Virus record (IMG/VR): IMGVR_UViG_3300033407_000049 | Span: 1-41,454 of that record | Direction: 5' to 3' (one strand) | Length of the DNA: 41,454 nucleotides | Source: a virus | Taxonomy: Duplodnaviria > Caudoviricetes | Shown here: in pieces, positions 5,927-37,097 of the stretch | How the letters are laid out: each line of letters begins with the position of its first letter | Numbering within the stretch: position 1 is the first letter of the stretch | The notes under the pieces: generated by a model | What the model was told of the DNA's origin: nothing | What the model saw: the letters and a program-made list of their open reading frames with translations, nothing else | Database searches by the model: none | Program-made: the position numbers and the translations under genes

Positions 5927-5931
5927 CACTT

Positions 5932-17520: not shown

Positions 17521-19029
17521 TTACGTTAGTTTACCCATACGCACACGCAAATTACCACTGGCGTCATAAACACGAAAATCATTGGTTGCGCCGTCAATAA
17601 TGACTTTACCATTCGGCGTAAAATCGTCATCTGTTTGAAATTTGGCGCCTGTCAGTAAGGTCGTATTTATTTTTCCAGCACTGACAATATCTGTGCTAAG
17701 TGCATCCACTGCGACGGTGCCGTGTATAATCATATTTCCGTCAATAGCTTCAGTAATCAGCCCGCTGAAATGGGTAGCCAGTACCGTAATGTACTGCTCG
17801 GTAGCTGCTCCGAGATACACGCGAGTTCCGGCTAACTGCGCACTCACATCGGTTACCGTAATCTTGTCGTTGGGCCGTAAAGTGCTATCATTGGTCAGTC
17901 CAGATAGGATCATGTCACGGGCGACCGCCTGGGCTGCTTCATTGGTCAGCGTACCTGCCCAACTGGCGGCTACCGCAGGAGTGATATAGGTTGTCCCCGC
18001 GTCACTTTCTTCAAAGACGAAAGAATTACTGCCACGCGGACCTGACGCCCCATTGGCGCCGCGAATGGCGATAGCCAGGCCCCAGCCTATCCCGGTACCA
18101 TCATCGACCTTCTGGCTCATCCAGCCGGCTTCTGCGGTGGCGTTGGTATGCCAGCCGTTGCTGTCACCGGCGATGTTATCCGGAGGTACCGGAGCGATCC
18201 CTTGGGGATCAGCATCGTGATAGGTGATATAGACGGATAAGCCGTTTGCCCCTGCTGCCCCTGCGACGCCGTCATTGCCATCCAGAAGCATCACTTCCCA
18301 GGCATCCATAGCGGTGTAGATATAGACCACATGGTTGTCCGTATCCCGGTACGCCCAGTTGATTTGTGGATCAGCGGGAGGGGTGGCCAGATCGCCTTTC
18401 CAGACAATCGAGACACCTTCTTGCCCATCAATCCCATCAATCCCATCAATGGTCATCTGATACCAGACACCGTCCCAGAAGATATAGCTGCGTTTGTTCG
18501 CGGTATTCTTGTAAGAGAAACCGTCTTCGGCTCCCAAGGGATGGGCATCCGCTTCGCCCAGCCAAACGATCGAAGTGCCATTATTACCATTTACCCCATT
18601 GGATCCGTTCAGACCGGCAACGCCCGGTAAACCGGGTAAGCCGGGATCGCCTTTGTCGCCCTTTTCGCCGGTACTGCCGAGCGATCCATGCCGGACAAAC
18701 AATACCGGCGGACTCCAGACGTCCTGTTGCGGAGCTAGCCCGTCACTGGTAAAGAATCGCGATGACGCAAAGACCGGATCGGTCCCGGGCAAAATGGTAT
18801 GGGTCCAGGTGCCGCCATCCGGAATCGGAAAGGTCCAGCCACCGCCTACCGGGGTAACCGGCACCGTGGACGAACGACGATAAACCATGGACATGAACTG
18901 CCCCTGGCCGGCCGTACCATTTGTCCACTGCTCGATCTGCGCATCCGTGACAAAGCGATTGTTTGCATCCTGCGAAATGACTTCAGGAGGATGACTGCCT
19001 TCGGCACCGTAATTTTTGATATCCGCCAT
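17521..19029 (-). CDS. collagen-like tail fibre with gpJ-like C-terminus, 502 aa
   Basis: Gly-X-Y runs (GEKGDKGDPGLPGLPGVAGLNGSNG…) between repeated SIVW(L/K)G modules; C-terminal IDGNMIIHGTV…RVYDASGNLRVRMGKL. Confidence 0.8.
   Translation of the reverse strand: MADIKNYGAEGSHPPEVISQDANNRFVTDAQIEQWTNGTAGQGQFMSMVYRRSSTVPVTPVGGGWTFPIPDGGTWTHTILPGTDPVFASSRFFTSDGLAPQQDVWSPPVLFVRHGSLGSTGEKGDKGDPGLPGLPGVAGLNGSNGVNGNNGTSIVWLGEADAHPLGAEDGFSYKNTANKRSYIFWDGVWYQMTIDGIDGIDGQEGVSIVWKGDLATPPADPQINWAYRDTDNHVVYIYTAMDAWEVMLLDGNDGVAGAAGANGLSVYITYHDADPQGIAPVPPDNIAGDSNGWHTNATAEAGWMSQKVDDGTGIGWGLAIAIRGANGASGPRGSNSFVFEESDAGTTYITPAVAASWAGTLTNEAAQAVARDMILSGLTNDSTLRPNDKITVTDVSAQLAGTRVYLGAATEQYITVLATHFSGLITEAIDGNMIIHGTVAVDALSTDIVSAGKINTTLLTGAKFQTDDDFTPNGKVIIDGATNDFRVYDASGNLRVRMGKLT
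18424..18450. repeat. perfect 9-nt tandem repeat x3
   Basis: (CCCATCAAT)3, encoding IDG-IDG-IDG on the minus strand. Confidence 0.8.
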
Positions 19030-19040
19030 ACGCTCTCTTT

Positions 19041-22000
19041 CTATTCGCCCAAACCGGAACCGAGTTTGCTGAGCAGATCGATATACAGTACGCCCCCGAC
19101 ACTGGAAGCGGCTGCGGTTCCAGCCGTACCGATATTCTGGAAAAGGCCCTTGGTGACCCCGGGAATCGAGTTGATGATGTTATCACCCACTCCGGTTGCC
19201 GAACCCAGCAAAAAGACGGACAGTGCGGTAAAGGGTGCATCCAGCAAGACATTCTTGATATGCTTGAGGACCCGGAGCTGGTACTTCGAGAAGAAGACCA
19301 GACCAATCGAATTGGCGTATTCTATGGATTTGTGTGTCGGTAAGTCAAAGTTTATAAACTTGTCGACTACTGTCGCCACCGCATCCCGATGTTCCATGCC
19401 CTTCTTCTGGGTGAGGTGTTTGTACATGACGTAACGCCCGACGTAGTCAGTCATCTTCACCGCATTGTTCATCATACGAAAACCTTCGGTATCCTGGGTC
19501 ATGAAAAGGACCCGGATGGCTTTCTCCATCTTAGCCGGCATCTTCTTCAGCAGCGTATCCAGGCCCTTATCCAGCCCGTAAGTATAGGGCGACTCGTTCT
19601 GGACGGTATCCACGTCATCGACAATGGAGGGCAGCAGTCCTGCCTCGATCATTGCCTTGGAAGGATTCCTTGCCAATTCGTCTTCCAGCCGAGCAATATT
19701 CCGATCCAGCACTTTGAGCTGCTGGGCTTTATCCACTGCATTGATGCTTTCCTTGGCCGCCAGGATGTTTCGCTGGATGGTGGCGGAAGTAAACTTCTGG
19801 TGCAACGACTGGTAGAGCAGGGCGCTGTTGATCGCTTCCCGAGAACCTTTCAGGATCTCATGGATCGGAACCCCGTGCGAGAGCAACAAGGCGATGTTGC
19901 TCAGGTAGTTGCCGTGGATAACTTTCAAATTACGCACCACGATATTACTCTTGGCCAGGCTGGTTAACTGGGTAAGGAATTCTTCACCTCGTTTGGCTCG
20001 TACCACAGCTCGACCGACTTGTTTATCTTTGCGCATCTGCGCCGAGTCGGTCGCCAGGTCATTCAACGAACTCTTGTAGAAAGGATTATCCCAGCCTAAA
20101 GCGAAGGTCAGCACCTCTTTGACCGAGCGTCCGATCAACTTCTGCTCGGAACTGTTCTTGCTGAAGACTTCCGTAATGCTGTATTTATTCTGTCCGAAAG
20201 CCAGGGTGATCATATCCCGACTGACCATCATCCCGTCGCGTCCCCAGACCGATTTGATCTGGGCGCGCATCTTGTCTGGCAGCCGGAAGTAGATTTCTCG
20301 CAGATCCTTATCTGTCGAGGTCGGAGAAATATCGACGAAGTCGAGAGGATACTTCTCAAACTGCGCATCGTAGAAATCCTTCAAGGCGGAGACGACTTCC
20401 TTGTTCACTACAGGAGTCATCTTCTTGTCCACGATCTGGCTGGCCATGGCGCCAAGGACCGCATCCACTTCGGAGAACTGTTGCAGGACGGTATCCTTGG
20501 TATGCTCGTTCATCATGTAACGGGTACCCAGCATTCGACCTTTGTCGTCGTAGTGCGGAATGACATAATTTTTGGCCCCGGTCGGAACATAAGGCTTGCG
20601 GGGGGTACTCTTGTACATCTTCTCCAGCGTGGCCTGCACAGTAGCCATCAAATGCTTCTCGTTCTGTTCAGCCTTAGCCGGCGCCGTGATAAAATTACCG
20701 ATCTGTTCCTGGACACGAAGAGCATCCGAACCCTTCTTGGTATTGGTGGTCAGCGAGGTAATCCCCGACTGAAGCGGATTGATCGTTCCGGTCAGCGACT
20801 TGAACATATAGATATCTTCTTTAACCAGATCGTTTGGATCCCTCTGAATGGGCGATTGCTCCATGGTGTAACCCATGCGGGTAAAGCGGGCCTGATCATG
20901 AATCGTGCCCTGCTCGTACTGCACTCGATCATTGAGGATCTGTTTGATATAGCCCTTCTGCATCTTGCCCGGCTGGTTATGAAAGGTTTCCTTGAGGGCT
21001 TCGGCTTTGAGCAGATTGTGCTGCACCAGGATATTTTCAAAACCCTGCCAGTTGTCCTGCATCAGCTCCACCAGGATCTGTCGATCCCGGGTCGGTACAT
21101 AGCGCAGCGAAGAAAGGGTCGCCAATTCATCGATAATGGTGATTGCCTTGGTGAGATGTTCTCCCTTCAAAGTCCCTGCGGTTTTCAAGCCATCCATCAC
21201 CGCAATGTTGTGGGCATTCAGCAACGGTACACCGTCGGCACGACGGGCGCCGTGGATCATGTAATAACCCAGATCGTCAGCAGCCTTTTCGAAGAAATGA
21301 CGGTGAGGACGCAAGGCCGGGTCGTTGAGCAGTTGCAGCATCAGGGCCGCAATCCGGTCTTCCCGGACCTGCTCACTACCTACTAGATCGATCAGCACAT
21401 CCTTGCCGGTACTATCCAGTAAAGAACTCAGATCGGTCTTCAGGCCGACCCTGGTGTAGACCTCTTTCTGTTTGGCCGTGACACCGGGCTTCAACCAAGA
21501 ATTAACCTCTGCCCGGATACCATCGGCTACCTCCACCTTGGCGGTATCGAGCACCCGCTTACGCCAGCCCAGCATTTCATGGAAGGTCTGTAGCCGAGGC
21601 GTCAAACCGCGTACCTCACCCATTACACTGGCCATAAAGCCCTCAGTACCATCCTTGTCGTTCATCCAGTTAAGCGCACGGCGGGTCTGGTAGGAGAGGT
21701 AGTTATCCGCTTCGTGTAGATCGCTGACCTTGAGGACGAGCTGACCAACCTTGCGGCTCTTGATGATCTTGGTGGCTGTCTCCTTGACCTTGTCGTCAAC
21801 TTTAATACCGAGTGCAGCCACTTTGTCAGACCCCTTGACGAACGTGGCGTAGATGCCCGATTTGGCCCTTACGTCGATCTCGGACAAAGCACGAACCAGA
21901 TTCTCCAGCTCGACATCCGCTTGGGTGGCATGCTGCTGTTTGTAGAACTGGGTATGGATAAAATCCATGATCTTGTTGAATAGATTAACCACCGACTGCT

Positions 22001-25000
22001 GGATGTTCTTTTCAAAGACACCGAACAAAGCGGTGCTCTGTTTCTTCGGCGGAATCTCCAGGGTCGCCAAGGCCCGCTTGAAGTTCTCGTTGGTTAAACC
22101 AAAGGCAAGGAATTCCGCGACACCTCGGTTGCTACCATCTGTGTTACGATCAGGGGCGAAGATATACGCCCAGCGTTCTTTGGCGGCCAGCACTTCGAAG
22201 GAATTGTTCGGATCGGTAATATCCGCTTCGGGATCGTTCATGAACACGCGGAAGGCGTTGGCGCCGTAGGCTGTTTCAAAAGTATCCCGGGCCAGCTCGT
22301 ACAGATTGGTAGCTTGTCCGCGCAGATAGGGCGACAGCTTGTAGCCACTTTGGATAATATGGTGGACGATCTCGTGAGCGTAGACTTCCCCTGCCGACAT
22401 TCGGATGCCGTGTCCGAGCATTCCCGACTTGGGTGCCGTGGAGAGTTGCTGGGTCTGCAACCAGATCTTCTTCTCTTCGCCGACATAGAGACCGTGGGTT
22501 TCCTGGTCGATCTTGTGCGTGCCGATAAAGAGCTGTATCGGTGTCATGACCCGGGCCACGATGTCGTTCATCACCCGGACCAGATGATTTTTATGATCGG
22601 GCGATACCGCCACACTGCCGTAACCGGCCTGGGCATCTTGCTGCAGAACCGTCTCCAGAACTTCGGCCACGTTCAGAGCATCAACCTTGGTGGTATTTGG
22701 ATAATCCGCTTCCAGAGGTTTCCCCGGGCTTTGCTGACTGGATCCCTGGGTGTCCGAATTCTGTTGTGCGGCCTCACCGTCCTTGCGGTCTTTCAGCCAG
22801 GCAGCGGTTGCCATGACGTTGTCCGCATCCACTGCTGTCACCGTATCTCGGTTGACACCCAGGACCGTATCAGCGGTTATGTCCACGCCTTCCGGATCGT
22901 AGCCAAAACCAGAGTTGGAGTATTGAGCCATCCTGGTAACGTAGGGCATCAGGGCCTTCTTGTTGTCCGTTACCTGCTGGGCAATATCCTTGGCTTGCTC
23001 ACCAATTTTTATAAGGGCGTCTTTGACTGCCTGTTGATAGCCAATCTTGGATAGCGCACTCTTGATTGCTCCAGGTAAGCCGGTCTTGTAATTACCGGAA
23101 GCACTGGCTTCTTGGGTAATACTTTTGATCTGTTTATCAAGGAAAATGTCCCGAGTTTCCGGATCGGGATTCTTACCGATAAAATGCGCTTCGGTGATTA
23201 GGTCTGCTGCCAGTTCCTTTTCAATGGCGCGTTCCTTGATCAAGGAGTCCAAGACCTCTTCCGACTTGATTCCCATTTCCTGGGCCATTTTACGCGCTGC
23301 CGTCAGAGTGCTTTCGTGCATCTTGACGATCTCTTCACCCATGCTGTAGCTGTTCATGATGCGAAAGAATTCTTGATTGGCTTGTTTTCCCACGATTCCG
23401 CTGTCAGTAATTCGGTGACTGAAACCATCATGGTTATTGAGGATATCGATATCCAGTCCCATCAGATGATTGGCTATCATTGAATCCAGCATGTGAATAA
23501 TACGGATAATCGGTGCCACACCGGGAGGATCCAGAAAAGGAATCCCTTCAGGGGTACCCTTGTGTTTCACCACAGTACCATTTTGATAGTTCTGCTCTAC
23601 TGCTGATTTCTTGGCGAAGAGTTTATCTTTGCCGGAAGACACCAACTGCAGGTAACTCGGATTGTCCTCGCGGTTAATCGGAGTCGGAATCTTCGGCATC
23701 AGCGGCTCCAGTTCCTCCAGGATCTGGGCCAGTTCCTTTTTGGTAAGCTGTTGCAGCTTGGGAGACTTGCGAAGGATTGCTTCATCCTTTGGATGGAGTT
23801 CTCCCTTCTGTACGCGCAATGCAGCCAATGCAGCCCGCACCTTACTCTCCAGTTTGGCTTCGACTTTGGCTTTTAGCATAGTGTTGTACATCACCACGGA
23901 AACATTGATCGCATCCAGTAAAGTCTTGCGGGCTTCGATGACCGGCGCATAAACGATATTGACTGCTTCACTCATCGCCTTGCCGTAGGTAGCATTGGCT
24001 GCGGTTTCAATCGCGGCAATTTCAAGATCCTTGAACTTGAACTTCAGCAGTTCATCGATGTTGAGAGCGTTCTCGGGTGTCAGATACTTTTTGATATCGT
24101 GAACTTCCTTGCCCAATAGGACGTTGATATTTTTCAGCAGCTTGTCCAGCCGCTTCAGTATTTCGCTATTGGTTGGCCGATCGGCGGGGCTCTCTTCCAG
24201 CAGGTAATCCTGGGCGATCTTTTCGATCTTGGCGTAAATGCCATCGTTGATCAGATCGACATCGGCAAAGAGTTTCGACTGGCTGAAGAGTCCGGCACCG
24301 AAAGTCGTCTGCATGGTGCGTGGTTTGGAGAGATTGCGGACGATCTTATTGATCACCCCACTCTCGTCAGAGAAAGAACCAAGGATTTCACCGATAGCGT
24401 CGGTGACGTCCAGTTGGTAATCGAGCCGATCTTTGACAAAGGAATCCTTCAGCAGCTCGATCTGTTTCGCCCATTCCTGACCCATGCGCTGGTAGGCGTC
24501 ATTGAGGAACCGGTTATCCGGGCCGATCAGGGTATCCAGGTTGGGTGGATTGCGGGAGACGCTGACACCGGCCATGGCCAGTGCCGCCAGTTTCTCCTGC
24601 ATAGCCTGGGCAATTGTTTGTCCCGGCATAGAACCTTTGTTTGACAGCAGCATCATCAACAGCATGGTGGGGCCGTTGCTGACGCCGTCGATCTCTTTGT
24701 AGAGATCGGTGGTGAATGGCTGGGCACTATCCTGGGCGTGGTTCAGATAGCGAGCATACTCCTGCAGTCCCTTAAAACCATGCAGCTTCATGCCACTGGC
24801 TTCCACTCCGACCGCGATGGCCTGCATCAGTTCGGTGGTCATCTCTTTCGTGCGGTCGAATTCCTGCAATGCTTCGATAGCCGGCAGCAGGGCATAGTGT
24901 TTCTTCTGGTCCTTGGCGGAGAGATTCTCCGGATGGTTGAACAGGTTATTCAGGGCTTCTAGTTGGCCCTCTACGCTATTGTACTTGGCTGACTCGATAT

Positions 25001-26675
25001 CCAGGGCTTGCGCTACGGCTTCAAAGAAAGCGCGTTCTGTGCCCTGTTTATCCACGAAGGAGACGATATCGTGTTCCGGAGCAAACGATACTTTCCAGCT
25101 CGACGGTGCGAAGAGATTGCGGATCACTTTGGAGTTCTGTGGATTGATATAGCCACGCATCAGCATCCGCATATTGCTGATAAAGTCACTGAGGATAAAG
25201 AAGGTATTCTTGTCTGCAGCCTTGGCCTGTTTCAGAAACGTCCGGACATGCTTGATGGTCCGGTCCACATCCTTGTTAATACTCTGGACGCTCTTTTCCC
25301 GGGTGAGGAGTTTGCCTGCCATGGACTCCTTACCAAAGATTGTGCCAAAGGCTTCCAGAGCCAGCGGATCGGCGGTCGCTTCATCGGCCACCAAGGCATC
25401 CATCGCTTCGAAGGCGCTCATGCTCGGCGTCGCGGAGGTCCACTCCGTATCCACGTAATTCTGGATATTTTTGTGCTGCTGCGGACTGATCGCTCCGACG
25501 GTACGACCGGCGCGCATGGTCTTGGGCAAGGGAATCTTGCCGAAGGAGTAACGCAGGGTCTGCGGTTCGTTGTTAAACAGCTTTTCAAAGATATCCGGCG
25601 CCAGGTTCAGTCGTTCCTCGATCTCTTCTACCAACGACAAAGGTTTGGCGTTGTCATTGGGATTGCGGCGCAATACCGTGGACGTGATGTACCCACTACC
25701 TTCGCGGGTTTTATGCACCGCATCGCTGTAGAACAGATCGTTATGGGTGACTGGTAGATATTCTTGCAGCTTCTTGAATGCCCCAATAAACATATCCTGG
25801 CGCTCAACCACGCCCATCTGTTCCAGTCCGGCAATCGCCATCAGACCCAGTGACATCTCCAGCCGGGACTTGCCCAGAGCATCGGCATTTTCCGTGGGAG
25901 TAATCGCCAGCCGTTCTAGTACGGTGCGCCCCAAAGCTTTCGCTAGAGACTCAGTATTCGTTCCCAGTCCCTCCAATAGTTCCAGGGTAGCCTTGGGTAT
26001 ATCCGAATCCTTGGGCCAGCCCAGCAGCTCACGCAGCATGTCCTGGGACTGCTCACCCATGGCCGTACGGGTCGCATCATTGCCCAGCCATTCGTAGACG
26101 GTCGCCGAGATCGCTTCTTTAACGGCCGGATCCAGATAGGCCGAAAGAGCTTTGGCATCCGCGTCATGTTCAGCGAAGTATTGGATCATATCCTCATGTC
26201 GGAAAGCCTTGGAAGAGCCTTCCTTGACCCGGAAGATCGCATCCAGCGCCACCGACATATCGGCATCGAAGACTTCATCGAAGTGGTTGAGGACATTGCG
26301 TTCTGCCGGATTCAAAACCATGAACCGGGCCGCTGCCTGGTAGATGCTGCCGGCCCGCTGCACCAGATTCTGCATCAGGAGCTTCAGACCGCCGACGGGT
26401 TTGAATTCGTTCAGCTCGTTGGACGGATCTTCCGGCCTGGAGGTAAACCGGGTAGCCGGTACAGCCTCCAGCAAAACCTGACGGTTCTGTTTATGCTGCT
26501 CCTTGACACCAGTACGGATTGCCTTCAACTGGGCGATGTGCGCTTCCATGGCGACCCGGGCCAGATCCCCTCGGCCCGCTTCCACAGCAGTTTTGACACT
26601 GGCCGGAAGACGGTCTTCGGTTCTTCCTTTGCCGTGGATATTCACGCAGCTTTGCAGCGAGCCTTTGGTAGCCAT
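19041..26675 (-). CDS. virion RNA polymerase (N4 gp50-like): polymerase plus C-terminal domains, 2544 aa
   Basis: MRMLMRGYINPQNSKVIR; motif A EIDGVSNGP; motif B RNLSKPRTMQTTFG; motif C NNHDGF; HEIVH motif; vRNAP-type C-terminus (MIEAGL…DYVGRYVMYKHL…FINFD). Confidence 0.92.
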   Translation of the reverse strand: MATKGSLQSCVNIHGKGRTEDRLPASVKTAVEAGRGDLARVAMEAHIAQLKAIRTGVKEQHKQNRQVLLEAVPATRFTSRPEDPSNELNEFKPVGGLKLLMQNLVQRAGSIYQAAARFMVLNPAERNVLNHFDEVFDADMSVALDAIFRVKEGSSKAFRHEDMIQYFAEHDADAKALSAYLDPAVKEAISATVYEWLGNDATRTAMGEQSQDMLRELLGWPKDSDIPKATLELLEGLGTNTESLAKALGRTVLERLAITPTENADALGKSRLEMSLGLMAIAGLEQMGVVERQDMFIGAFKKLQEYLPVTHNDLFYSDAVHKTREGSGYITSTVLRRNPNDNAKPLSLVEEIEERLNLAPDIFEKLFNNEPQTLRYSFGKIPLPKTMRAGRTVGAISPQQHKNIQNYVDTEWTSATPSMSAFEAMDALVADEATADPLALEAFGTIFGKESMAGKLLTREKSVQSINKDVDRTIKHVRTFLKQAKAADKNTFFILSDFISNMRMLMRGYINPQNSKVIRNLFAPSSWKVSFAPEHDIVSFVDKQGTERAFFEAVAQALDIESAKYNSVEGQLEALNNLFNHPENLSAKDQKKHYALLPAIEALQEFDRTKEMTTELMQAIAVGVEASGMKLHGFKGLQEYARYLNHAQDSAQPFTTDLYKEIDGVSNGPTMLLMMLLSNKGSMPGQTIAQAMQEKLAALAMAGVSVSRNPPNLDTLIGPDNRFLNDAYQRMGQEWAKQIELLKDSFVKDRLDYQLDVTDAIGEILGSFSDESGVINKIVRNLSKPRTMQTTFGAGLFSQSKLFADVDLINDGIYAKIEKIAQDYLLEESPADRPTNSEILKRLDKLLKNINVLLGKEVHDIKKYLTPENALNIDELLKFKFKDLEIAAIETAANATYGKAMSEAVNIVYAPVIEARKTLLDAINVSVVMYNTMLKAKVEAKLESKVRAALAALRVQKGELHPKDEAILRKSPKLQQLTKKELAQILEELEPLMPKIPTPINREDNPSYLQLVSSGKDKLFAKKSAVEQNYQNGTVVKHKGTPEGIPFLDPPGVAPIIRIIHMLDSMIANHLMGLDIDILNNHDGFSHRITDSGIVGKQANQEFFRIMNSYSMGEEIVKMHESTLTAARKMAQEMGIKSEEVLDSLIKERAIEKELAADLITEAHFIGKNPDPETRDIFLDKQIKSITQEASASGNYKTGLPGAIKSALSKIGYQQAVKDALIKIGEQAKDIAQQVTDNKKALMPYVTRMAQYSNSGFGYDPEGVDITADTVLGVNRDTVTAVDADNVMATAAWLKDRKDGEAAQQNSDTQGSSQQSPGKPLEADYPNTTKVDALNVAEVLETVLQQDAQAGYGSVAVSPDHKNHLVRVMNDIVARVMTPIQLFIGTHKIDQETHGLYVGEEKKIWLQTQQLSTAPKSGMLGHGIRMSAGEVYAHEIVHHIIQSGYKLSPYLRGQATNLYELARDTFETAYGANAFRVFMNDPEADITDPNNSFEVLAAKERWAYIFAPDRNTDGSNRGVAEFLAFGLTNENFKRALATLEIPPKKQSTALFGVFEKNIQQSVVNLFNKIMDFIHTQFYKQQHATQADVELENLVRALSEIDVRAKSGIYATFVKGSDKVAALGIKVDDKVKETATKIIKSRKVGQLVLKVSDLHEADNYLSYQTRRALNWMNDKDGTEGFMASVMGEVRGLTPRLQTFHEMLGWRKRVLDTAKVEVADGIRAEVNSWLKPGVTAKQKEVYTRVGLKTDLSSLLDSTGKDVLIDLVGSEQVREDRIAALMLQLLNDPALRPHRHFFEKAADDLGYYMIHGARRADGVPLLNAHNIAVMDGLKTAGTLKGEHLTKAITIIDELATLSSLRYVPTRDRQILVELMQDNWQGFENILVQHNLLKAEALKETFHNQPGKMQKGYIKQILNDRVQYEQGTIHDQARFTRMGYTMEQSPIQRDPNDLVKEDIYMFKSLTGTINPLQSGITSLTTNTKKGSDALRVQEQIGNFITAPAKAEQNEKHLMATVQATLEKMYKSTPRKPYVPTGAKNYVIPHYDDKGRMLGTRYMMNEHTKDTVLQQFSEVDAVLGAMASQIVDKKMTPVVNKEVVSALKDFYDAQFEKYPLDFVDISPTSTDKDLREIYFRLPDKMRAQIKSVWGRDGMMVSRDMITLAFGQNKYSITEVFSKNSSEQKLIGRSVKEVLTFALGWDNPFYKSSLNDLATDSAQMRKDKQVGRAVVRAKRGEEFLTQLTSLAKSNIVVRNLKVIHGNYLSNIALLLSHGVPIHEILKGSREAINSALLYQSLHQKFTSATIQRNILAAKESINAVDKAQQLKVLDRNIARLEDELARNPSKAMIEAGLLPSIVDDVDTVQNESPYTYGLDKGLDTLLKKMPAKMEKAIRVLFMTQDTEGFRMMNNAVKMTDYVGRYVMYKHLTQKKGMEHRDAVATVVDKFINFDLPTHKSIEYANSIGLVFFSKYQLRVLKHIKNVLLDAPFTALSVFLLGSATGVGDNIINSIPGVTKGLFQNIGTAGTAAASSVGGVLYIDLLSKLGSGLGE

Positions 26676-26688
26676 AGAAACGCCTTAC

Positions 26689-26970
26689 TTATTTAGAGGA
26701 GTTCAGGTTGATAACTGCCGCTTCCAGCGCCGCATTGATCATCGAGGTACCGATCTCAATCCCCGAAGATTTCATGTCCATCAAGATGAGATCAAAGGCT
26801 GCCTGGCGTTTGTCTTTACCGTCCGCTGCGGTCATGGTCTGGGCCACAATGGTTACCGCTCTAATGGCCGAACGGGCCAGGATACGTCCACTGTCCGAGA
26901 GAAGCTGTTTAACAAACGGCTGCAGAAAGATCCAGATATCGGAGAGGAAGAACTTCATTTTGTCCCACAT
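26689..26970 (-). CDS. LL-H-type holin-like protein, 93 aa
   Basis: AAGGAG RBS; GKDKRQAAF…INAALEAAVINL signature; close to the endolysin. Confidence 0.6.
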   Translation of the reverse strand: MWDKMKFFLSDIWIFLQPFVKQLLSDSGRILARSAIRAVTIVAQTMTAADGKDKRQAAFDLILMDMKSSGIEIGTSMINAALEAAVINLNSSK

Positions 26971-27071
26971 GGCTTGCTCCTTTTGGTTCGTTTGAAGAGT
27001 CTGGCCAACCAGTCGTCCCAGTTCACCTTGAAGCTCTTTTTGATTATGAGTTTATCCAGGGGCAATTTCAC
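26955..27071 (-). CDS. possible small basic peptide, 38 aa
   Basis: GTG at 27071; overlaps both neighbours and fills the gap; weak RBS. Confidence 0.3.
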   Translation of the reverse strand: MKLPLDKLIIKKSFKVNWDDWLARLFKRTKRSKPCGTK

Positions 27072-27345
27072 TCTTGCCCGCCTTCTCGATCTTGTGGCCG
27101 ATACCGATGCCTTGCAGTCCCGAGCAGACGCCGTAGATGCCGCCCATGAAGGTGGCGTAGGCCGTTTCAATCGGCACTTCTGGAAGACCCTGATCAGGAA
27201 AGGAGACGCTGATAAAGCCGACGAGTCCCGCACCCACAGCAACCAATCCAGCGATAATCTTGCCGGCTGCTCCGGCGTAAGTCTTTTTACCATTAAGCTT
27301 CCTGCCGATGAAAGCCAGGAACTGTTTTAACATAAAGTTCTTCAT
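27052..27345 (-). CDS. holin candidate, two TM helices, 97 aa
   Basis: ATG 27345 with GGAG RBS; LNGKKTY followed by two hydrophobic helices; directly downstream of the endolysin. Confidence 0.65.
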   Translation of the reverse strand: MKNFMLKQFLAFIGRKLNGKKTYAGAAGKIIAGLVAVGAGLVGFISVSFPDQGLPEVPIETAYATFMGGIYGVCSGLQGIGIGHKIEKAGKSEIAPG

Positions 27346-27355
27346 AAGTGCTCCG

Positions 27356-27946
27356 TCAGAAAGAAGTATCGAGACGCACCAGCCAGCCGGGAATATATCC
27401 AGGATCGAGCTGCTTGTAGTGCATGTAGGCTTCGCCACGTAACGCAGCATGGAGAGCCAAGGGGTAAGGACAGGTCCGGATGACTTCGCCGGTCAGAGGA
27501 CCAATTTTGCCGTCTACCAGTAACGGTTTACCGTGCATCATCTGGACAATGGCCTGGCGCCACTTGGCTCGGCGCAGTGGCAGGACTTCACCCAGACAAA
27601 CGACGTTGACCGCCCGTTGCAACATCTTTGCAGCACCGCCCACTCCGCAGTTCACCGCCAGGTCGTAGAAACGACAGGCCAGTTCAGGCGCTTTATCGGA
27701 GAAGCGATTGGCTCCAGAGGGTAGCCAGTAATCCCGAAAATAAATGGCTCGCGCATCATTGATGGTCAGGCTCTGGATATCCAGTAGTGGGTAGGCTTTG
27801 GCCGAAACACCGTACTGGGTTCCTTTAAGGGTCCCCTTGCCCACCTTACCTCCGGTCCAGTTGCCCGGATCGTTGGGATCCATCGACGTCTTGCCCTCGT
27901 GCCGCAAGGTGAAGGAGAATGCTTCTTCAAATACACCGAATTTCAT
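27356..27946 (-). CDS. endolysin, glycoside hydrolase family 108
   Basis: HEG…DPNDPGNWTGG…GTQYGVS…AIYFRDYW…DLAVNCG…LQRAV…VDGKIGPLT…GWLVR. Confidence 0.9.
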   Translation of the reverse strand: MKFGVFEEAFSFTLRHEGKTSMDPNDPGNWTGGKVGKGTLKGTQYGVSAKAYPLLDIQSLTINDARAIYFRDYWLPSGANRFSDKAPELACRFYDLAVNCGVGGAAKMLQRAVNVVCLGEVLPLRRAKWRQAIVQMMHGKPLLVDGKIGPLTGEVIRTCPYPLALHAALRGEAYMHYKQLDPGYIPGWLVRLDTSF

Positions 27947-28431
27947 AAAGGAGTCCCCGAAGGAATAGATTGCACGAGTTTCACTAAACCATGCAATATG
28001 GACCAGACTTGATTAGCCAAGAAGTAGACCATTGCCAGAATTACTGCTACCTGAACTTTGTCAAATTTTCCGTCTACATTGGGGGAAAGTGACTTACGCA
28101 ATTTGCATGATTCTGGGGAAGGGTGACCTACAAGATGCGTTTGTACTTTCTGATCCAGTTCCCTCATAACATTTTCCAGATGAGCAGCTTCTTCTCGCTG
28201 TATCTTGTATAGAGTATCGATATCCCGCTGATTGTCCGCCGTGCGATCCGCTAAAGCCACCAACCGTTCTTGTTGTTTGGCGATGTCGATCAAAGCACCA
28301 ACCATTCGCTTTTGGTCATATCTGAACTCTTGGACACTTTCGAGTAATTGATTCAGTATTGGACCTTTGTCGCAAGCATCAGCAGTCATAGAAAACCCTG
28401 TCGTTGTGTAGGAGAAAAGGGTGATCGTCAT
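27943..28431 (-). CDS. coiled-coil protein with C-terminal TM helix (lysis-cassette protein)
   Basis: ATGA overlaps at both ends; heptad-rich N-terminus, TM segment VQVAVILAMVYFLANQVWSIL. Confidence 0.65.
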   Translation of the reverse strand: MTITLFSYTTTGFSMTADACDKGPILNQLLESVQEFRYDQKRMVGALIDIAKQQERLVALADRTADNQRDIDTLYKIQREEAAHLENVMRELDQKVQTHLVGHPSPESCKLRKSLSPNVDGKFDKVQVAVILAMVYFLANQVWSILHGLVKLVQSIPSGTPL

Positions 28432-31352
28432 TTGCCATTGAAACAGTTGAGAATACTCTCTGCTTCAAGTATTTCTTGGGTCAGGGCGATCATAGCTTCG
28501 TTGTAGGTTTTCTCTACTTGCTGCCCGTCTATATCCGTAAACTGTATTTTCAAATATCCAGGATCAATCGGTTCAGCAGATATATCGCCGGAAACAGTAG
28601 CAGTATTGTCTGCAACAGTCGATTCTTTTATTTCCTTTGTAGGGCTTTTTGCATCCTCGGTTTTCTCGACAACCGGTGAGGTCTTGTTGGATTCCTCAGT
28701 CTCACTTTGGGTTACCGGCGTTACATCTTCTATCGACGAAGGCTCTACCGGCAAGGCCGCCGCTTCTTCGGTTGCCAGAGCTAGCTCTTCCTGAAAGACC
28801 CGGACTGCCTCAGGGCCGTATTTGACATTCAGTTGCTTTTCTTTTTGCCGCAGAATGGCGGGTGTCGTCTTTCCCTCGGCCAGCGTTGCGACGGCATTCC
28901 GGGCATACTTCCGAGTTTTACTTTCCACCACGGGATCTAGCGCAACAGGTTGGCTCACAGCCGGCGTAGTTGGTGCGACCGAGGTGTTGGCCTGCACCGG
29001 AGTCGTGCGAGCGGTCAGCAGGCTCTCAGCGAAGGTTACTTCCTTCTGCAGCGCGTCCGCTTCATTAGCAACCAGAGCTACCAGCTTTCCAGAGAATTTA
29101 TGGATCTTGTAGTTTTTCCCCTGGATCTTCAGATGGATCGTGGGACGCGGTTCGGTCTTCGGATCGAAGACGATCTGGGAAACCTTGTCAAAGGCTTCGG
29201 TGATCTGCTTCATCTTGTCCTGATGGGCATCGTGGAACTTGGCGAGTTCTTGGATCTGTTTCTTAGCACCCTCGACGTTATTGACCGCAGGATTAAGGAA
29301 ATTGGCGATCGCCTGCCGGTACGAGTCGATACCACGGAAATCCTTGTCGCCACGGTAAACATCTTCGTGAACGGCTTCAGCCGTTTTACCGTCGGTCACA
29401 GGACGCTGCTTGATCGCCGACTCGATCACCTGACGGGCGGCAACCGTTTCCTTTTTGGCTTGCAACAGAGTCCGTTCGACTTCGGGCAGATCGGGCTTCG
29501 CCAGGCGCTGATCCAGTTGCTGAATACTCAAACTGGCTTTACTGGATCCGTAGGTTTCGGTGGTATGGTTGATGACCTCTTCGGTGGTAGCAGACGCCAC
29601 ATCGAGGGGAGTCGTTTCCTTCTCGGTACTGACCTTGTTGTTCAGTTCACGGATGACCAGCAATTGCCGGGACATCTGTACCGCAACCTCGCCCTTTATT
29701 TCATGCTGCTTGACCAGGGCCGCCATCTGCGCTTTTTCCTGCAGAGTCTTCTGGTCACCCTTGTCCCTCAAGGCGACAATTTTCTCTTCGGTCGCCAGCC
29801 AGTCGGCTTTGACCGATGCATAGAGTTCTTCGGCCTTCACCGCCGCTTCGGGATTGTCGGCAAACTTCGCCAGCGAGGTGATGGCTTTTACCGGACTGTA
29901 ATTCTCGTGCACGGGATCGGACCATTCTTCGATCCGGGCATCGCCAAGTGCAACTTCGGCAACTTCTTTCTTGAAGCCATGCTCATTACGCGCTTCCTTC
30001 TGCGCCGCTGCTTTCTCGGTATCGGTCTTGATCGCTTCGACGGCTGCCTTGGATTCAGGTGTAGCGGTCAACAGCTTCTTGGTGAACTCACCGGTCTTGT
30101 TGGCGGCCAGCTTGGAACCAAAGGCCGCCGTGTTGATGCCGGCACCGATCGGGCCGGCTCCTACGCCACCGAGAGTTTCATAGATGAGATCCTCGGCTTT
30201 GATTTCTTCACCGATACCGCCAGTAGCGGCGGCTTCGGACAGGGGTTCACTGGCGACTTCTCCGGCATAGCTGGTTACGGCACTGCCGAGTTTCTTTTTG
30301 AAACTGCGTTCCGCCAACAGCTTGCTGGCCCCGGCGTTGATGAAGTCTTCGGTCAGGGTTTTAAGAGGGATTCCTTTTTCCGCTGCCCGCGCCGCGAGCA
30401 TCGCCCTGCCGACGTCGTCCACGCTGCGCATGGCCGCCTGGCGGGCTGCTCGCGTCGGGAGTGTAGCCAGCTTGGAGAAGAAGCCGCCCATGGCCACATC
30501 GGCCGCTCCCAGAATCCCGCCGTACTTCAGCGCATCGGCCTGGTACTCTTTGATCAGACTTGGATTCTGATCCATGAACATCTTGACGTTGGCCGGCGTG
30601 TAAGCGATCCCTCTCTCGTCCAGACCGCCCCGGATCTTTTCAACCATCTTGGCCGAACCGGCATCGGCTGCCTCGGCCGTGAACATGCCGGCCGCGGTAA
30701 TGAAAGGAGCAGCCGGAGCCGCCCATCCACCGGTCGCCGCGGTAGCGCCGGCTGCCACCAGACTTCCGGCCTTGGCGCCAGCACCCATGGAAGCCATAGA
30801 GCCAATCGACTGCGCCGCGACATCCAGCACCCCGCCGGGATTCTTGACGATATCCCCGACCAACTGCGCGGATGCCTTCACGCCCCCCAGGAAACCGCTC
30901 GCATCGGTGCGCTCGCCCCAAACCTTCATGTCGTGGGCGAGCTGCTTCATTTCGCGGGTGAGGGGTGCGGCATCTTCCTTGTTCAGATAATTGGCGACCT
31001 GAGTCGGGTAGTCATTGTCTACCTGGCCCACCAGATCGTCCACCATTGGGATGCGACTGGCGGCAGACAGCAACGAACGCTTGAGCGTGTCTTTCAGATT
31101 TAAGGCGAAGCCCTGGTTATCGGTGGTGGCCTGATCGGCTTTTCTTTGCTGATTGAGGGGATTATCGGGACTCTTGAGTTCCCGCTCCTCGATCAGTTGT
31201 TTATGGGCAGTCCGATACAATTCCTGAGTAGCCGCGTCCGCTTTCAGGAAAGACTCGTGCTTACCCATCGTCTGTTCAAAGTCCGCAGCGATCGTGGCTT
31301 CCCGATCGGCAGCCGGCGCTTTCGGAGTGGGTGTTTCAGTCTCGACTGCCAT
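28428..31352 (-). CDS. separately encoded N-terminal (ejection) region of the virion RNA polymerase, 974 aa
   Basis: Occupies the gp50 position right after the gp51 homologue; Gly/Ala-rich hydrophobic segment; ELAKFHDAHQDK resembles an N4 vRNAP N-domain motif; 974+2544=3518 aa, close to the ~3500 aa of N4 vRNAP. Confidence 0.75.
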   Translation of the reverse strand: MAVETETPTPKAPAADREATIAADFEQTMGKHESFLKADAATQELYRTAHKQLIEERELKSPDNPLNQQRKADQATTDNQGFALNLKDTLKRSLLSAASRIPMVDDLVGQVDNDYPTQVANYLNKEDAAPLTREMKQLAHDMKVWGERTDASGFLGGVKASAQLVGDIVKNPGGVLDVAAQSIGSMASMGAGAKAGSLVAAGATAATGGWAAPAAPFITAAGMFTAEAADAGSAKMVEKIRGGLDERGIAYTPANVKMFMDQNPSLIKEYQADALKYGGILGAADVAMGGFFSKLATLPTRAARQAAMRSVDDVGRAMLAARAAEKGIPLKTLTEDFINAGASKLLAERSFKKKLGSAVTSYAGEVASEPLSEAAATGGIGEEIKAEDLIYETLGGVGAGPIGAGINTAAFGSKLAANKTGEFTKKLLTATPESKAAVEAIKTDTEKAAAQKEARNEHGFKKEVAEVALGDARIEEWSDPVHENYSPVKAITSLAKFADNPEAAVKAEELYASVKADWLATEEKIVALRDKGDQKTLQEKAQMAALVKQHEIKGEVAVQMSRQLLVIRELNNKVSTEKETTPLDVASATTEEVINHTTETYGSSKASLSIQQLDQRLAKPDLPEVERTLLQAKKETVAARQVIESAIKQRPVTDGKTAEAVHEDVYRGDKDFRGIDSYRQAIANFLNPAVNNVEGAKKQIQELAKFHDAHQDKMKQITEAFDKVSQIVFDPKTEPRPTIHLKIQGKNYKIHKFSGKLVALVANEADALQKEVTFAESLLTARTTPVQANTSVAPTTPAVSQPVALDPVVESKTRKYARNAVATLAEGKTTPAILRQKEKQLNVKYGPEAVRVFQEELALATEEAAALPVEPSSIEDVTPVTQSETEESNKTSPVVEKTEDAKSPTKEIKESTVADNTATVSGDISAEPIDPGYLKIQFTDIDGQQVEKTYNEAMIALTQEILEAESILNCFNGK

Positions 31353-31366
31353 CCATTACCTCTTAA

Positions 31367-33415
31367 TTATTTTCGCTGAAGGTTCATGGACTTTGGCAAC
31401 TTATTGTTCTCGCTTCCCCTGTTTATCGCGTTTTTACGTTTATACCAATCGCGGATGTTTCCTATTAATTCCGCGCCACCGTTATCGGTAGAATCTTTCC
31501 ATGGCTCCCTACTGCCGGCAAACGCTGCCTGTTCTGCGAGCTGTGCGCGGAGTTTTTCTGCTTTAGCTTTTTGCGCATCCAACCGGGCCTTTTCCTCTGT
31601 TGCAGCTTTATCCCGCTGCGCCTTTAATTCTGCGGCCCTCGCCACGATTTCATCGGGAGTTGTTTCGCTCGCAGGTGTACCGGGAGATTTCTCTCCAGGG
31701 GCTTCCTTGGCTACCCTATTCTTGGCCAGCCATTTTGCCTCGGCTTCAATGCCTTCTTCCCAGGAAGCAAAAGTGACCTCTTTGCCCGTATCATCGTTAC
31801 CGACATTCCCGGGGTTGCGGGTACGCGCGCCTTTACCGGTTGTTCCAAAAGAGGAATCCTGCTGCATCATAGCCATCAGCAACTTAGGCTCTACATCGTA
31901 CTGTTTGGCGTATTTGCTCACCATGGCGCCGGTTATCGGACTGTTCGGGGCGGTAGCTTGAATATACTGGTCAATCTGCGCAACCGACTGCACAGGCGGC
32001 ATAGTATCAAAGAGTTCCTGCACTTTGTTTTCGTGGTTGGGGTCGGTTGCATGGCGGCTGATGTCTACCCCGGCAATGACGCGCGGATTCGCCGATGTTG
32101 GCGCGTTATCCCCGTACACTGTCTTACCGCGACCCAATCCCACCCCGTCAATGCCAGGACCGGCGCCACCAAAGTTCTCTTGCGCTCCGGCGTCTCGCAG
32201 TTCTTTACTCAGCCGCAGCAGTGTTTCTTCGGCAGCCTGTTGCGCGGCAGTAGCCTCCTGACGCGCGGACATAAGCTCCCCGGAAGTAGCGAAGCGATTC
32301 TTGGCGTTCTCCCCGAGTTCTTTGGCGCGTGCTTCAATGGCACGCATGGCGTCTGCCGAAATGTCGTTGCCCCAGGCCCGATCGCCCGGGTAGTGTTCGG
32401 AAAACGCCTGGTATAGGGCAGCACCGGCGTCCTTCGCCTCCACCTTACTATCCAGCATCTCCTGATGAATCCGTGCGACCTCTTTCGCATCACTCTTGGG
32501 TGCCCAGCCCTCCACCCAGTTGGTGACCTTTTTCCCGATGGCTTGCGGCACTGAGGCACCAAAGTCGTTACCCAGAACGGTTTTCACCTGGGCGTACGCA
32601 TCATCGCTAATGCCGGTTCGCTGCAAGGCAATGTCCTGCTGTTCCAACTCGGCCACTCGATCCAGTTTTAGCTGAATCTTGCGCTTTTCCACGCCCTCCT
32701 GCAAAGCCACATAATGCTTGTGTTTCTCTTGCTGATCGGGGGTCAGCAGCAATTGTTCTTCCAATTCTTTGGTCAATTTACGAGTTTCGGCAACCCGCTC
32801 TTCTTCCGGCAGTTCAGCTACCAAGGCTTTGATCGCCATCCGGCCTACAGCCGGTCCATTGAGTTGCACCTCTTCAAAAAGACTGTTGGTGCGGGCAGAA
32901 GATTCCCGTGTTTTCTGGATTTCGTAATCCTGGAATCGTGTCGCATTGGTAGCGGCAAAAGACTGATTTGCCGCAGAAACGAGCGATTCCGGTGCTCCCT
33001 GCTCACGCAGACGCTGTTCAAAAAGCTGGCGCTGCTTTAACGGATCAGCGGCTTCGGTCAGTGCTTCGTTGGAAGCCAGGTTGATTGCGTTGGTTTCCAA
33101 CTGCTGCTTCGTACCGGCGTAGGTTTCCGTCAGTTTATCCATATTGATCGTGTTGCCAAACTGCCGAGTGACGGCCGTTTTGTCCAACGGATCGACACCC
33201 AGTCCCTCTTTTTTGAGCTTGTTCTGCAGATACTCCTGCATGTTGAGGGTATTGGTTTCCTTGTAGGACTCCTCGGTCTGTTTAAAGAGTTCCTCGACGC
33301 CCTTGAAAGCTTCACCGATACTCCTGCCTACCGCTTCTTGACCGGCAACCAGGGACTTCATATCCGGCGAATCAAAGCCGCCATACTTTTGGTAAAACGC
33401 ACCAGTGTTTGCCAT
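31367..33415 (-). CDS. internal virion/ejection protein (N4 gp51 position) with lysozyme-like domain
   Basis: Helical, no Cys seen; YAKQYDVEPKLLMAMMQQDSSFG…NPGNVG…FASWEEGI; gene order. Confidence 0.75.
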   Translation of the reverse strand: MANTGAFYQKYGGFDSPDMKSLVAGQEAVGRSIGEAFKGVEELFKQTEESYKETNTLNMQEYLQNKLKKEGLGVDPLDKTAVTRQFGNTINMDKLTETYAGTKQQLETNAINLASNEALTEAADPLKQRQLFEQRLREQGAPESLVSAANQSFAATNATRFQDYEIQKTRESSARTNSLFEEVQLNGPAVGRMAIKALVAELPEEERVAETRKLTKELEEQLLLTPDQQEKHKHYVALQEGVEKRKIQLKLDRVAELEQQDIALQRTGISDDAYAQVKTVLGNDFGASVPQAIGKKVTNWVEGWAPKSDAKEVARIHQEMLDSKVEAKDAGAALYQAFSEHYPGDRAWGNDISADAMRAIEARAKELGENAKNRFATSGELMSARQEATAAQQAAEETLLRLSKELRDAGAQENFGGAGPGIDGVGLGRGKTVYGDNAPTSANPRVIAGVDISRHATDPNHENKVQELFDTMPPVQSVAQIDQYIQATAPNSPITGAMVSKYAKQYDVEPKLLMAMMQQDSSFGTTGKGARTRNPGNVGNDDTGKEVTFASWEEGIEAEAKWLAKNRVAKEAPGEKSPGTPASETTPDEIVARAAELKAQRDKAATEEKARLDAQKAKAEKLRAQLAEQAAFAGSREPWKDSTDNGGAELIGNIRDWYKRKNAINRGSENNKLPKSMNLQRK

Positions 33416-37083: not shown

Positions 37084-37097
37084 GGAAGCCTCTCCTA

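What the first reader, a model, noticed from the sequence alone, without database searches (positions are those of the whole stretch)
19041..31352. Virion RNA polymerase split in two with the lysis cassette in the break
Seen: after the gp51 homologue come a 974-aa gene, ~1.75 kb of lysis genes, then a 2544-aa gene whose polymerase domain starts near its N-terminus. Established: N4 vRNAP is one ~3500-aa chain with an ~1000-aa N-terminal injection domain, a central mini-vRNAP and a C-terminal domain. The break matches that first domain boundary and the lengths sum to 3518. Inference: gene fission by cassette insertion, or a pre-fusion ancestral state. Homology of the 974-aa protein rests on position, size and one motif.
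Basis: partly seen in the sequence, partly recalled or inferred. Interest (0 to 1): 0.85.

Follow-up and report, generated by a model that had tools for sequence, protein, structure and literature searches.

The report
Split virion polymerase with cysteine clasp
This uncultured N4-like phage encodes its giant injected RNA polymerase as two separate genes whose only two cysteines sit at the facing ends, a pattern shared by dozens of relatives and one cultured phage, so the halves are likely tied back together by a disulfide bond for injection; the lysis genes between them likely moved in after the split.

Summary
The split is real. The 974-aa gene is the N-terminal domain of an N4-type virion RNA polymerase (PHROG E 1e-17), and the 2544-aa gene carries the polymerase motifs and C-terminal domain. 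Five other contigs show it with both halves in view, so it is no chimera. The lysis cassette is unlikely to be the cause: gap content varies from 1.75 to 7.2 kb, and one split relative keeps its endolysin at the N4 site. The notable feature is at the new ends. The only cysteines in 3518 residues are Cys970 of 974 and Cys10. The same holds in 49 of 54 stand-alone N-domains and 23 of 24 polymerase halves; 0 of 64 fused proteins end in cysteine. Cultured Alteromonas phage AD45-P1, published as split, obeys the rule (Cys2493/2495, Cys4). Cyanophage A4 has a solved disulfide in this geometry. Best reading: helix docking locked by an interchain disulfide rebuilds one injectable thread; this is inferred, and the complex prediction gave only weak support. 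Trees favour repeated fission. This scan reported the cysteine clasp before on other DNA; my searches did not find it in print for this enzyme.

The parts
28428..31352 (-). vRNAP N-terminal (injection/membrane-anchor) domain as a stand-alone 974-aa gene; helical domains, a disordered linker, then a terminal hairpin-helix module
   Evidence: PHROG 2206 E 9.8e-18; profile hits to fused vRNAPs; AlphaFold2 model mean pLDDT 79.7, pTM 0.48; Foldseek hits to first fragments of named vRNAPs, E 8e-5 to 9e-4, low TM-scores
28569..28751 (-). Low-complexity linker (residues about 868-928), remnant of the N-domain/polymerase linker
   Evidence: pLDDT below 50; unalignable and length-variable among homologues
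28431..28550 (-). C-terminal module of the N-domain protein (residues 935-974): beta-hairpin plus amphipathic helix ending in Cys970 (codon 28445-28443), the protein's only cysteine
   Evidence: C970 invariant in 19 of 19; no match in 40 fused proteins
27943..28431 (-). 162-aa protein with one C-terminal hydrophobic segment; possible holin or antiholin (inferred)
   Evidence: No family hit above cut-off; hydropathy peak 128-146; 46% identical homologue in L001
27356..27946 (-). Endolysin, glycosyl hydrolase family 108
   Evidence: PF05838 E 1.7e-14; PHROG 315 E 7.8e-27
27052..27345 (-). 97-aa membrane protein with two hydrophobic segments; holin-like by anatomy only
   Evidence: 58% identical homologue in L001; no family hit
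26955..27293 (-). 112-aa overlapping ORF, uncertain gene (its last 36 codons may be the real one)
   Evidence: 37% to an ORF in L001; Rz1 match E 0.03 is below cut-off
26689..26970 (-). Holin of the LLH family, 93 aa
   Evidence: PF09682 E 3.1e-8; three PHROG holin families
19041..26675 (-). vRNAP polymerase plus C-terminal domain, 2544 aa; R503, D663, R780, K784, F792, D1083 and an HEXXH motif at 1434-1438
   Evidence: PHROG 2206 1081.7 bits; PDB N4 vRNAP E 5.6e-28; motif mapping to N4 and LUZ7
26466..26675 (-). Clade-specific N-terminal extension (residues 1-70) with Cys10 (codon 26648-26646), the protein's only cysteine
   Evidence: C10 invariant in 20 of 20; only chance-level matches in fused proteins
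31367..33415 (-). 682-aa cysteine-free gene in the gp51 (periplasmic tunnel) position, with a weak glucosaminidase-like match
   Evidence: Position; PF01832 E 4.1e-6, below cut-off; no profile match to N4 gp51
33428..33991 (-). 187-aa cysteine-free gp52-like outer-membrane ejection protein
   Evidence: Profile of 7 homologues matches N4 gp52, E 8.6e-8
17521..19029 (-). Tail-fibre gene directly after the polymerase gene, a clade feature not seen in N4, LUZ7 or pVco-5

Best explanation
The phage encodes its N4-type virion RNA polymerase as two genes cut at the linker after the N-terminal domain, each half with a single cysteine at the facing end, and the halves likely dock by their terminal helices and are likely locked by a Cys970-Cys10 disulfide, which would rebuild one thread for packaging and ejection. 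Steps: (1) two genes, intact polymerase motifs, paired terminal cysteines: shown by sequence. (2) Both proteins enter the capsid: inferred from N4 and from AD45, where both chains were reported on gels. (3) The C-terminal helix of the N-domain protein binds the N-terminal helices of the polymerase protein during assembly in the reducing cytoplasm: predicted, weak support. (4) The bond oxidises after lysis or in the periplasm, so the N-domain, pulled behind the gp51-like tunnel, tows the unfolded polymerase through the roughly 35-angstrom channel: inferred by analogy with phage A4. (5) The N-domain stays in the inner membrane and the polymerase transcribes early genes, still tethered or released by reduction: inferred. 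The gap between the genes is a new intergenic site in the late operon, into which tail-fibre and lysis modules likely moved later; here it holds a GH108 endolysin and holin-type genes.
For: Only cysteines in 3518 residues are C970 and C10; if one cysteine per chain fell at random, both lying within 11 residues of the facing ends has probability 5e-5. Of the 150 hits listed, 54 are stand-alone N-domains reaching profile position 750: 49 of 54 have a cysteine in the last 12 residues and none outside the last 15; 0 of 64 full-length fused proteins end in cysteine, and 53 of 64 have none. Of 24 distinct polymerase halves, 23 have exactly one cysteine, within the first 11 residues; the exception is N-terminally truncated (P0028 counted through its longer start in L004). 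Cultured AD45-P1, split at the other linker, has only C2493 of 2495 and C4 of 1409; its split was PCR-verified and both chains were seen on gels (PMC3821669). The three pSb-1 pieces, 59-71% identical to N4 and probably sequence errors, have no cysteine. Precedent: in cyanophage A4 the C-terminal helix of gp27 inserts into gp26 with a Cys1715-Cys5 disulfide (PMC12002296); gp27 is 1717 aa, and these are the only cysteines in the two proteins. Schitoviridae ejection proteins otherwise suppress cysteine (PMC11445570). Complex prediction of the two ends: weak support, score 0.49 against best control 0.00, runs agreeing in at least 85% of contacts, partner pLDDT 71; the mark was reached by 116 of 157 solved complexes and 2 of 215 mismatched pairs, but at 0.60 or under by only 18 of the 157 and by both mismatches. 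Gap is secondary.
Against: No experiment shows binding or a disulfide in any split vRNAP. One search gave no contacts, so Cys-Cys proximity is not even predicted. Assembly takes place in a reducing cytoplasm, and weak hints point to an anaerobic deltaproteobacterial host (names of P0011 and P0234; a ferredoxin-domain gene), where oxidation after lysis is less obvious. The AD45 chains ran separately at 270 and 175 kDa; the passages I saw do not say whether the gel was reducing. That paper gives two cysteines for ORF127, whereas I count one in each ORF of the RefSeq record. 5 of 54 stand-alone N-domains lack the terminal cysteine; I did not check whether they are truncated. The search profile included the terminal module, which favours hits that carry it. 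The terminal profiles do not match A4 or AD45 ends by sequence, so the likeness is one of geometry only.
Confidence: 0.65

Rival explanations
1. The ends dock, but the cysteines bind a metal or form another linkage rather than a disulfide.
For: His46 of the polymerase extension is present in 18 of 23 aligned N-termini (counted); a metal site would work in a reducing or anaerobic setting.
Against: His46 is not invariant; no second conserved ligand at the N-domain end; AD45 and A4 ends share only the cysteines; A4 shows a real disulfide.
Confidence: 0.12
2. The halves are packaged and ejected separately; the N-domain binds the gp51-like tunnel, the polymerase goes in by its C-terminal domain, and the terminal cysteines serve other partners or homo-dimers.
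For: The N4 model has the N-domain binding gp51 (PMC13434306), and an unpublished result cited in PMC4496689 assigns encapsidation to the C-terminal domain; AD45 chains were seen as two bands.
Against: The gp51- and gp52-like proteins have no cysteine in 7 of 7 genomes; cysteines appear only at ends created by a split, one on each side, at two different break points.
Confidence: 0.13
3. The lysis cassette inserted into an intact vRNAP gene and so caused the fission.
For: A cell-wall enzyme lies in the gap in the window and in L001/L016, L002, L006, L007, and just upstream of the polymerase gene in L005; in complete genome G002 the N4 site for lysis and tail genes, between gp67 and portal, is empty.
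Against: G001 belongs to the same split clade, has no lysis gene in its fully visible gap and keeps its endolysin upstream of the portal; gap enzymes are GH108, CHAP, Amidase_2 or PHROG 465 type; AD45 is split with no insert; both new ends carry conserved modules that an insertion alone would not supply.
Confidence: 0.04
4. The two-gene state is ancestral to N4-like phages and single-chain vRNAPs arose by fusion, more than once.
For: Split and fused forms interleave: at least 6 changes forced by well-supported branches in a 119-row N-domain tree; L009 sits apart from the main split clade; A4 shows clasped separate ejection proteins outside the family.
Against: N4, LUZ7, pVco-5 and all deeper rows of the polymerase tree are fused; single split proteins are nested in fused clades, for example P0184 beside P0189; fused linkers hold no trace of the terminal modules. 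This concerns polarity only and is compatible with the clasp.
Confidence: 0.12
5. The split is an assembly chimera, or the halves are rejoined by RNA splicing or a split intein.
For: A cysteine near a protein end is also seen in inteins (recalled); the window holds a group I intron elsewhere.
Against: Same layout on independent contigs; no joint or variant in run X1; Rfam finds no intron in the gap; no intein family hit in Pfam and no His-Asn/Cys junction in the aligned ends; the gap holds intact same-strand genes.
Confidence: 0.02

Closest known systems
Coliphage N4 gp50 and Schitoviridae virion RNA polymerases (LUZ7 gp73, DEV gp71, Vibrio phage pVco-5)
   Same: Domain order N-domain, single-subunit polymerase, C-terminal domain; catalytic motifs; place after gp52- and gp51-like genes; near absence of cysteine.
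   Different: Two genes instead of one; break in the first linker; new terminal modules with one cysteine each; lysis genes between the halves; only about 25% identity to the best cultured match.
Alteromonas phage AltAD45-P1 two-chain vRNAP (PMC3821669)
   Same: Published, PCR-verified split N4-like vRNAP, read by its authors as a fission; by my count one cysteine at each facing end.
   Different: Break lies between polymerase and C-terminal domain; genes are 7 nt apart; no sequence match between its ends and the window's; the authors took cysteines as a sign the protein is not injected.
Cyanopodophage A4 (Anabaena phage A-4L) ejection proteins gp27 and gp26 (PMC12002296)
   Same: Consecutive ejection proteins; C-terminal helix of the first docks on the second; disulfide Cys1715 (of 1717) to Cys5; only cysteines in each chain.
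   Different: Not an N4-like phage and not an RNA polymerase; no sequence match to the window's proteins.
Shigella phage pSb-1 three-piece vRNAP annotation
   Same: vRNAP annotated as several ORFs (PMC10654107).
   Different: Pieces are 59-71% identical to N4 with no terminal modules and no cysteine; probably sequence errors (inferred).

Membership tests
N4-type virion RNA polymerase (Schitoviridae gp50) | Single-subunit polymerase motifs (DxxGR arginine, motif A Asp, motif B Arg/Lys/aromatic, motif C Asp) | tested here: met
   R503, D663, R780, K784, F792 align to N4 R1421, D1556, R1663, K1667, Y1675; D1083 aligns to LUZ7 D1749, while N4 misaligned at that column. Motif names are recalled.
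N4-type virion RNA polymerase (Schitoviridae gp50) | N-terminal domain homologous to the vRNAP N-domain | tested here: met
   PHROG 2206 E 9.8e-18; LUZ7, pVco-5 and 9 other fused proteins matched, N4 itself not.
N4-type virion RNA polymerase (Schitoviridae gp50) | C-terminal domain | tested here: met
   Residues 1737-2494 match N4 2756-3455 in the PDB; PHROG 2253-3376.
N4-type virion RNA polymerase (Schitoviridae gp50) | One polypeptide of about 3500 aa | tested here: not met
   Two genes of 974 and 2544 aa, 1752 nt apart.
N4-type virion RNA polymerase (Schitoviridae gp50) | No cysteine | tested here: not met
   One cysteine per chain, at the facing ends; family-wide suppression reported in PMC11445570.
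N4-type virion RNA polymerase (Schitoviridae gp50) | Packaged in virions, injected, active on hairpin promoters | not testable with these tools
   No culture or proteome; the early region is outside this 55%-complete record.
Schitoviridae | N4 hallmark genes in N4 order (gp58, 57, capsid, 55, 54, 53, 52; DNA polymerase, primase, gp44, SSB) | tested here: met
   PHROG matches across the window against N4's map; gp52 by profile.
Schitoviridae | Second phage RNA polymerase (RNAP II), portal, terminase, 59-80 kb genome, podovirus shape | not testable with these tools
   Record is partial; split relatives G001 and G002 are 72 and 76 kb with N4-type portal and terminase. RNAP II was not sought in them.
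A4-type disulfide-linked ejection protein pair | Sole cysteines at the C-terminus of the first and N-terminus of the second ejection protein | tested here: met
A4-type disulfide-linked ejection protein pair | Terminal helix docks on the partner | tested here: inconclusive
   Weak support, 0.49 against 0.00, no contacts given.
A4-type disulfide-linked ejection protein pair | Interchain disulfide in the virion | not testable with these tools
   Needs virions.
Split intein or intron-joined gene | Intein domain and junction residues, or intron RNA, at the break | tested here: not met
   No Pfam intein hit, no Rfam match in the gap, aligned ends lack the junction residues.

The most novel reading that the evidence does not exclude
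Podophages use a general terminal cysteine clasp to string separately encoded ejection proteins into one covalent thread. It has been re-acquired each time the N4-type polymerase gene broke, at either linker, and it may double as a redox switch that frees the polymerase from its membrane anchor once it reaches the cytoplasm.
Probability: 0.35. Interest if true: 0.88.

Novelty: new variant of a known kind. Interest (0 to 1): 0.72.

Why it matters
How a 380-kDa enzyme passes a roughly 35-angstrom tail channel, and why it is one chain, is stated as open in the 2026 N4 structure paper (PMC13434306). Natural splits that carry one cysteine on each side suggest that chain continuity, not single-gene encoding, is what ejection needs. 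They also recast the rule that these proteins avoid cysteine: stray cysteines would mis-pair, while two placed ones would be used. The cultured phage AD45-P1 follows the rule, so a non-reducing gel can test it now. Practically, surveys that require a full-length vRNAP or concatenate split ORFs as errors (PMC10654107, PMC11445570 methods) can miss or mis-describe these phages.

Tried and rejected
Single-protein scans of viral contigs found nothing; alignments were needed. A scan with the 49-sequence alignment had no usable pattern. Foldseek of the N-domain model against the PDB gave no match at E 0.001 or better, as expected since the N4 N-domain is unresolved. The ESM Atlas search with the last 60 residues gave no usable hit. 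Promoter-like sites were at chance level (11 against 10.3); terminator-like sites were above chance (31 against 18.2) but none lay on the coding strand inside the gap. GC content and third-position GC of gap genes resemble the flanks except the 162-aa gene, so composition does not date the insertion. No RNA holder listed. The Tyr-to-Phe change in motif B looked notable but occurs in 5 of 23 split and 7 of 39 fused proteins, LUZ7 among them. The crassvirus structure passages shown mention disulfides only in the tail. Covariation between the two ends was not attempted: only five genomes show both ends. Host not determined. Literature searches for a split vRNAP or a cysteine link found the AD45 and A4 papers and the remark in PMC10654107; none of the passages read proposes a cysteine link between vRNAP pieces. 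The library lacks most subscription journals, and I read no supplements; the AD45 gel conditions may be given there.
Full report
Observation. The window is a 41-kb, 55%-complete virus record with N4-like replication genes on the + strand and N4-like structural genes on the - strand. After the gp52- and gp51-position genes come a 974-aa ORF (31352-28428), a 1752-nt gap and a 2544-aa ORF (26675-19041). The gap holds a 162-aa protein with one hydrophobic segment, a GH108 endolysin, a 97-aa protein with two hydrophobic segments, one uncertain overlapping ORF and an LLH-family holin. No spanin passed a family cut-off.

Identity of the halves. The 974-aa protein matches PHROG 2206 (virion RNA polymerase) at profile positions 198-893, E 9.8e-18. 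A profile of its stand-alone homologues matches the N-terminal part of 11 of 40 fused vRNAPs, including LUZ7 and pVco-5 but not N4. Its model is mostly helical, with a disordered stretch at about 868-928 followed by a hairpin (935-949) and a helix (950-972). The model finds first fragments of named vRNAPs among predicted viral structures and nothing in the PDB. The 2544-aa protein matches the same PHROG at 1081.7 bits and N4 vRNAP in the PDB. Its catalytic residues align with N4 and LUZ7. In the nearest fused relatives its start maps to residue 810 of P0036 and 1103 of P0038, which is the linker region; N4's linker is residues 907-1006 (PMC13434306).

Not an artefact. Fourteen other proteins of 937-1280 aa match the N-domain at 35-55% identity. 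Of 54 hits for the polymerase half, 18 others of 2411-2990 aa match at 35-58% over 87-100% of its length. Both halves are visible as separate genes in L002/L008, L004, L006 and L007; L001/L013/L016, L003 and L014 show the N-domain gene followed by other genes; L005 and L009 show the polymerase gene starting on its own; L010, L011 and L015 are fused. L012 is the window's own contig. One contig of run X1 spans both junctions without differences, though X1 may be the source.

The gap is a later insertion site. Complete gaps measure 1752, 2848, 2924, 6657 and 7165 nt. They hold tail-fibre genes, lysis genes or both; the wall enzymes are GH108, CHAP, Amidase_2 or PHROG 465 type. In N4 the lysis and tail genes lie between portal and gp67. 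In complete genome G002 (L006) that site is empty and the gap holds fibre and amidase genes. In G001 (L004) the gap has fibre genes and one unknown ORF, and the endolysin is still upstream of the portal. G001 belongs to the same split clade (P0028). So the split exists without lysis genes in it.

The ends. The two chains hold two cysteines in 3518 residues: C970, fifth from the end of the first, and C10 of the second. I had noted the conserved terminal cysteines before reading this scan's earlier notes; those notes prompted the total count, the word 'clasp' and the A4 lead. Among the 150 hits listed (499 at E 0.001), 54 are stand-alone N-domains reaching profile position 750, of which 49 have a cysteine in the last 12 residues and none outside the last 15. 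None of 64 full-length fused proteins ends in cysteine; they hold 15 cysteines in 222,060 residues. The other 32 rows are 3 partial fused proteins, 26 that match only the first half of the domain (6 with a terminal cysteine) and 3 others (2 with). These distant proteins are called stand-alone from length alone; I saw no genomic context, and the profile included the terminal module. Of 24 distinct polymerase halves, 23 have one cysteine, within the first 11 residues. Profiles of the last 52 and first 70 residues find no credible match in 40 fused proteins, so both modules came with the split.

Precedent and outside tests. PMC3821669 (passages) describes a PCR-verified two-ORF vRNAP in Alteromonas phages AltAD45, with both chains on gels. 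In the RefSeq record the ORFs are 2495 and 1409 aa, 7 nt apart, broken between polymerase and C-terminal domain, with only C2493 and C4. The paper gives two cysteines for ORF127, which differs from my count. The three pSb-1 pieces have none. PMC12002296 (three passages) shows the C-terminal helix of A4 gp27 inserted in gp26 with a Cys1715-Cys5 disulfide; gp27 is 1717 aa and these are the only cysteines in the two chains. PMC11445570 (passages) reports strong cysteine suppression in 191 Schitoviridae vRNAPs and discarded genomes without a full-length gene. PMC10654107 (passages) treated split vRNAPs as gene-calling errors or read-through and concatenated them.

Complex prediction. Polymerase residues 1-80 with N-domain residues 922-974 gave weak support: score 0.49, best of 3 controls 0.00, runs agreeing in at least 85% of contacts, partner pLDDT 71. 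The mark was reached by 116 of 157 solved complexes and 2 of 215 mismatches, but at 0.60 or under by only 18 of 157 and by both mismatches; the counts hold only roughly with my alignments. No contacts were given. The ends have no sequence match to the solved A4 pair, so a pass from memory is less likely but not excluded.

Polarity. In a FastTree of 62 polymerase halves (23 split, 39 fused, 1688 columns; duplicates, one truncated protein and one partial fused protein left out), 22 split proteins with the window form one clade (support 100) nested among fused lineages, while L009 groups with fused L011. IQ-TREE on 28 of these rows agrees, and an AU test rejects one clade for all 12 split rows, p 4e-7 (run after seeing the first tree). 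A FastTree of 119 N-domains (4 gappy rows dropped; long branches flagged; the split label was given to stand-alone proteins with a terminal cysteine) needs 12 changes of state, 6 forced by well-supported branches. Close split-fused pairs exist: P0102 with P0095 at 48% and P0184 with P0189 at 43%. Fission is the better reading for the window's clade; repeated fission across the family is likely, and some re-fusion cannot be excluded.

Mechanism. In N4 the N-domain binds membranes and is proposed to follow gp51 out of the capsid, towing the polymerase by its linker (PMC13434306: abstract, sections 6, 8, 13 and passages). A review cites unpublished data that the N-domain is needed for injection and the C-terminal domain for encapsidation (PMC4496689, passages). 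Cutting the linker would separate these two functions. A docking helix locked by a disulfide would restore the tow line in a form that survives unfolding. Where the bond forms is open: after lysis, or in the periplasm. Hints of an anaerobic deltaproteobacterial host are weak but count against simple air oxidation. I put the disulfide clasp at 0.65.

Verdict. A real, clade-wide two-gene variant of the N4-type virion polymerase. A split vRNAP is in print (AD45) and a clasp of this geometry is in print (A4), but my searches found no paper joining the two ideas. PMC7650795, PMC10747016 and PMC10172136 were seen as passages only and add nothing on this.

Noticed in passing
window 16903-17511 (-): 202-aa gene in the tail-fibre region begins with a two-cluster 4Fe-4S ferredoxin domain (Pfam Fer4 E 1.6e-14) and lies in a low-GC patch; odd for a tail module and a possible hint of an anaerobic host.
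   Followed up: no
window 36367-37556 (-): The N4 gp54 equivalent is also two genes (152 and 238 aa, both matching PHROG 2050), and so in L001, L002, L003 and L014; N4, LUZ7 and pVco-5 have one gene.
   Followed up: partly
window 31367-33415 (-), residues 498-567: The gp51-position protein carries a weak glucosaminidase-like match (PF01832 E 4.1e-6, below cut-off); PMC13434306 says N4's ejection proteins appear to lack a wall hydrolase.
   Followed up: no
window 5644-5947 (+) and 5875-6528 (+): Group I intron match (Rfam RF00028) with an HNH endonuclease gene, just before the primase ORF that lacks the first 73 profile positions.
   Followed up: no
window 456-3678 (+): DNA polymerase is in two ORFs with an HNH endonuclease gene between them; no Rfam intron match at the gathering score there.
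   Followed up: no
P0011 (L014:8461-12039) and P0013: The variable linker of some stand-alone N-domains carries a PF00990 (GGDEF, name recalled) domain; P0005 and P0009 share another insert.
   Followed up: no
window 24300-24302 (-), F792: Motif B aromatic is Phe rather than Tyr; also in 4 other split and 7 fused proteins including LUZ7.
   Followed up: yes
L016: A close split relative sits in a genome bin labelled uncultured Sphaerochaeta; host or mis-binning not resolved.
   Followed up: no
P0156 and P0193: Proteins that match only the first half of the N-domain also end in a helix with a single cysteine, hinting that the terminal motif extends to other phage ejection proteins.
   Followed up: no
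L028:10323-12950: Terminase large subunit of G002 is 875 aa against 530 aa in G001, with extra matches to helicase-loader and primase profiles; possible insert.
   Followed up: no
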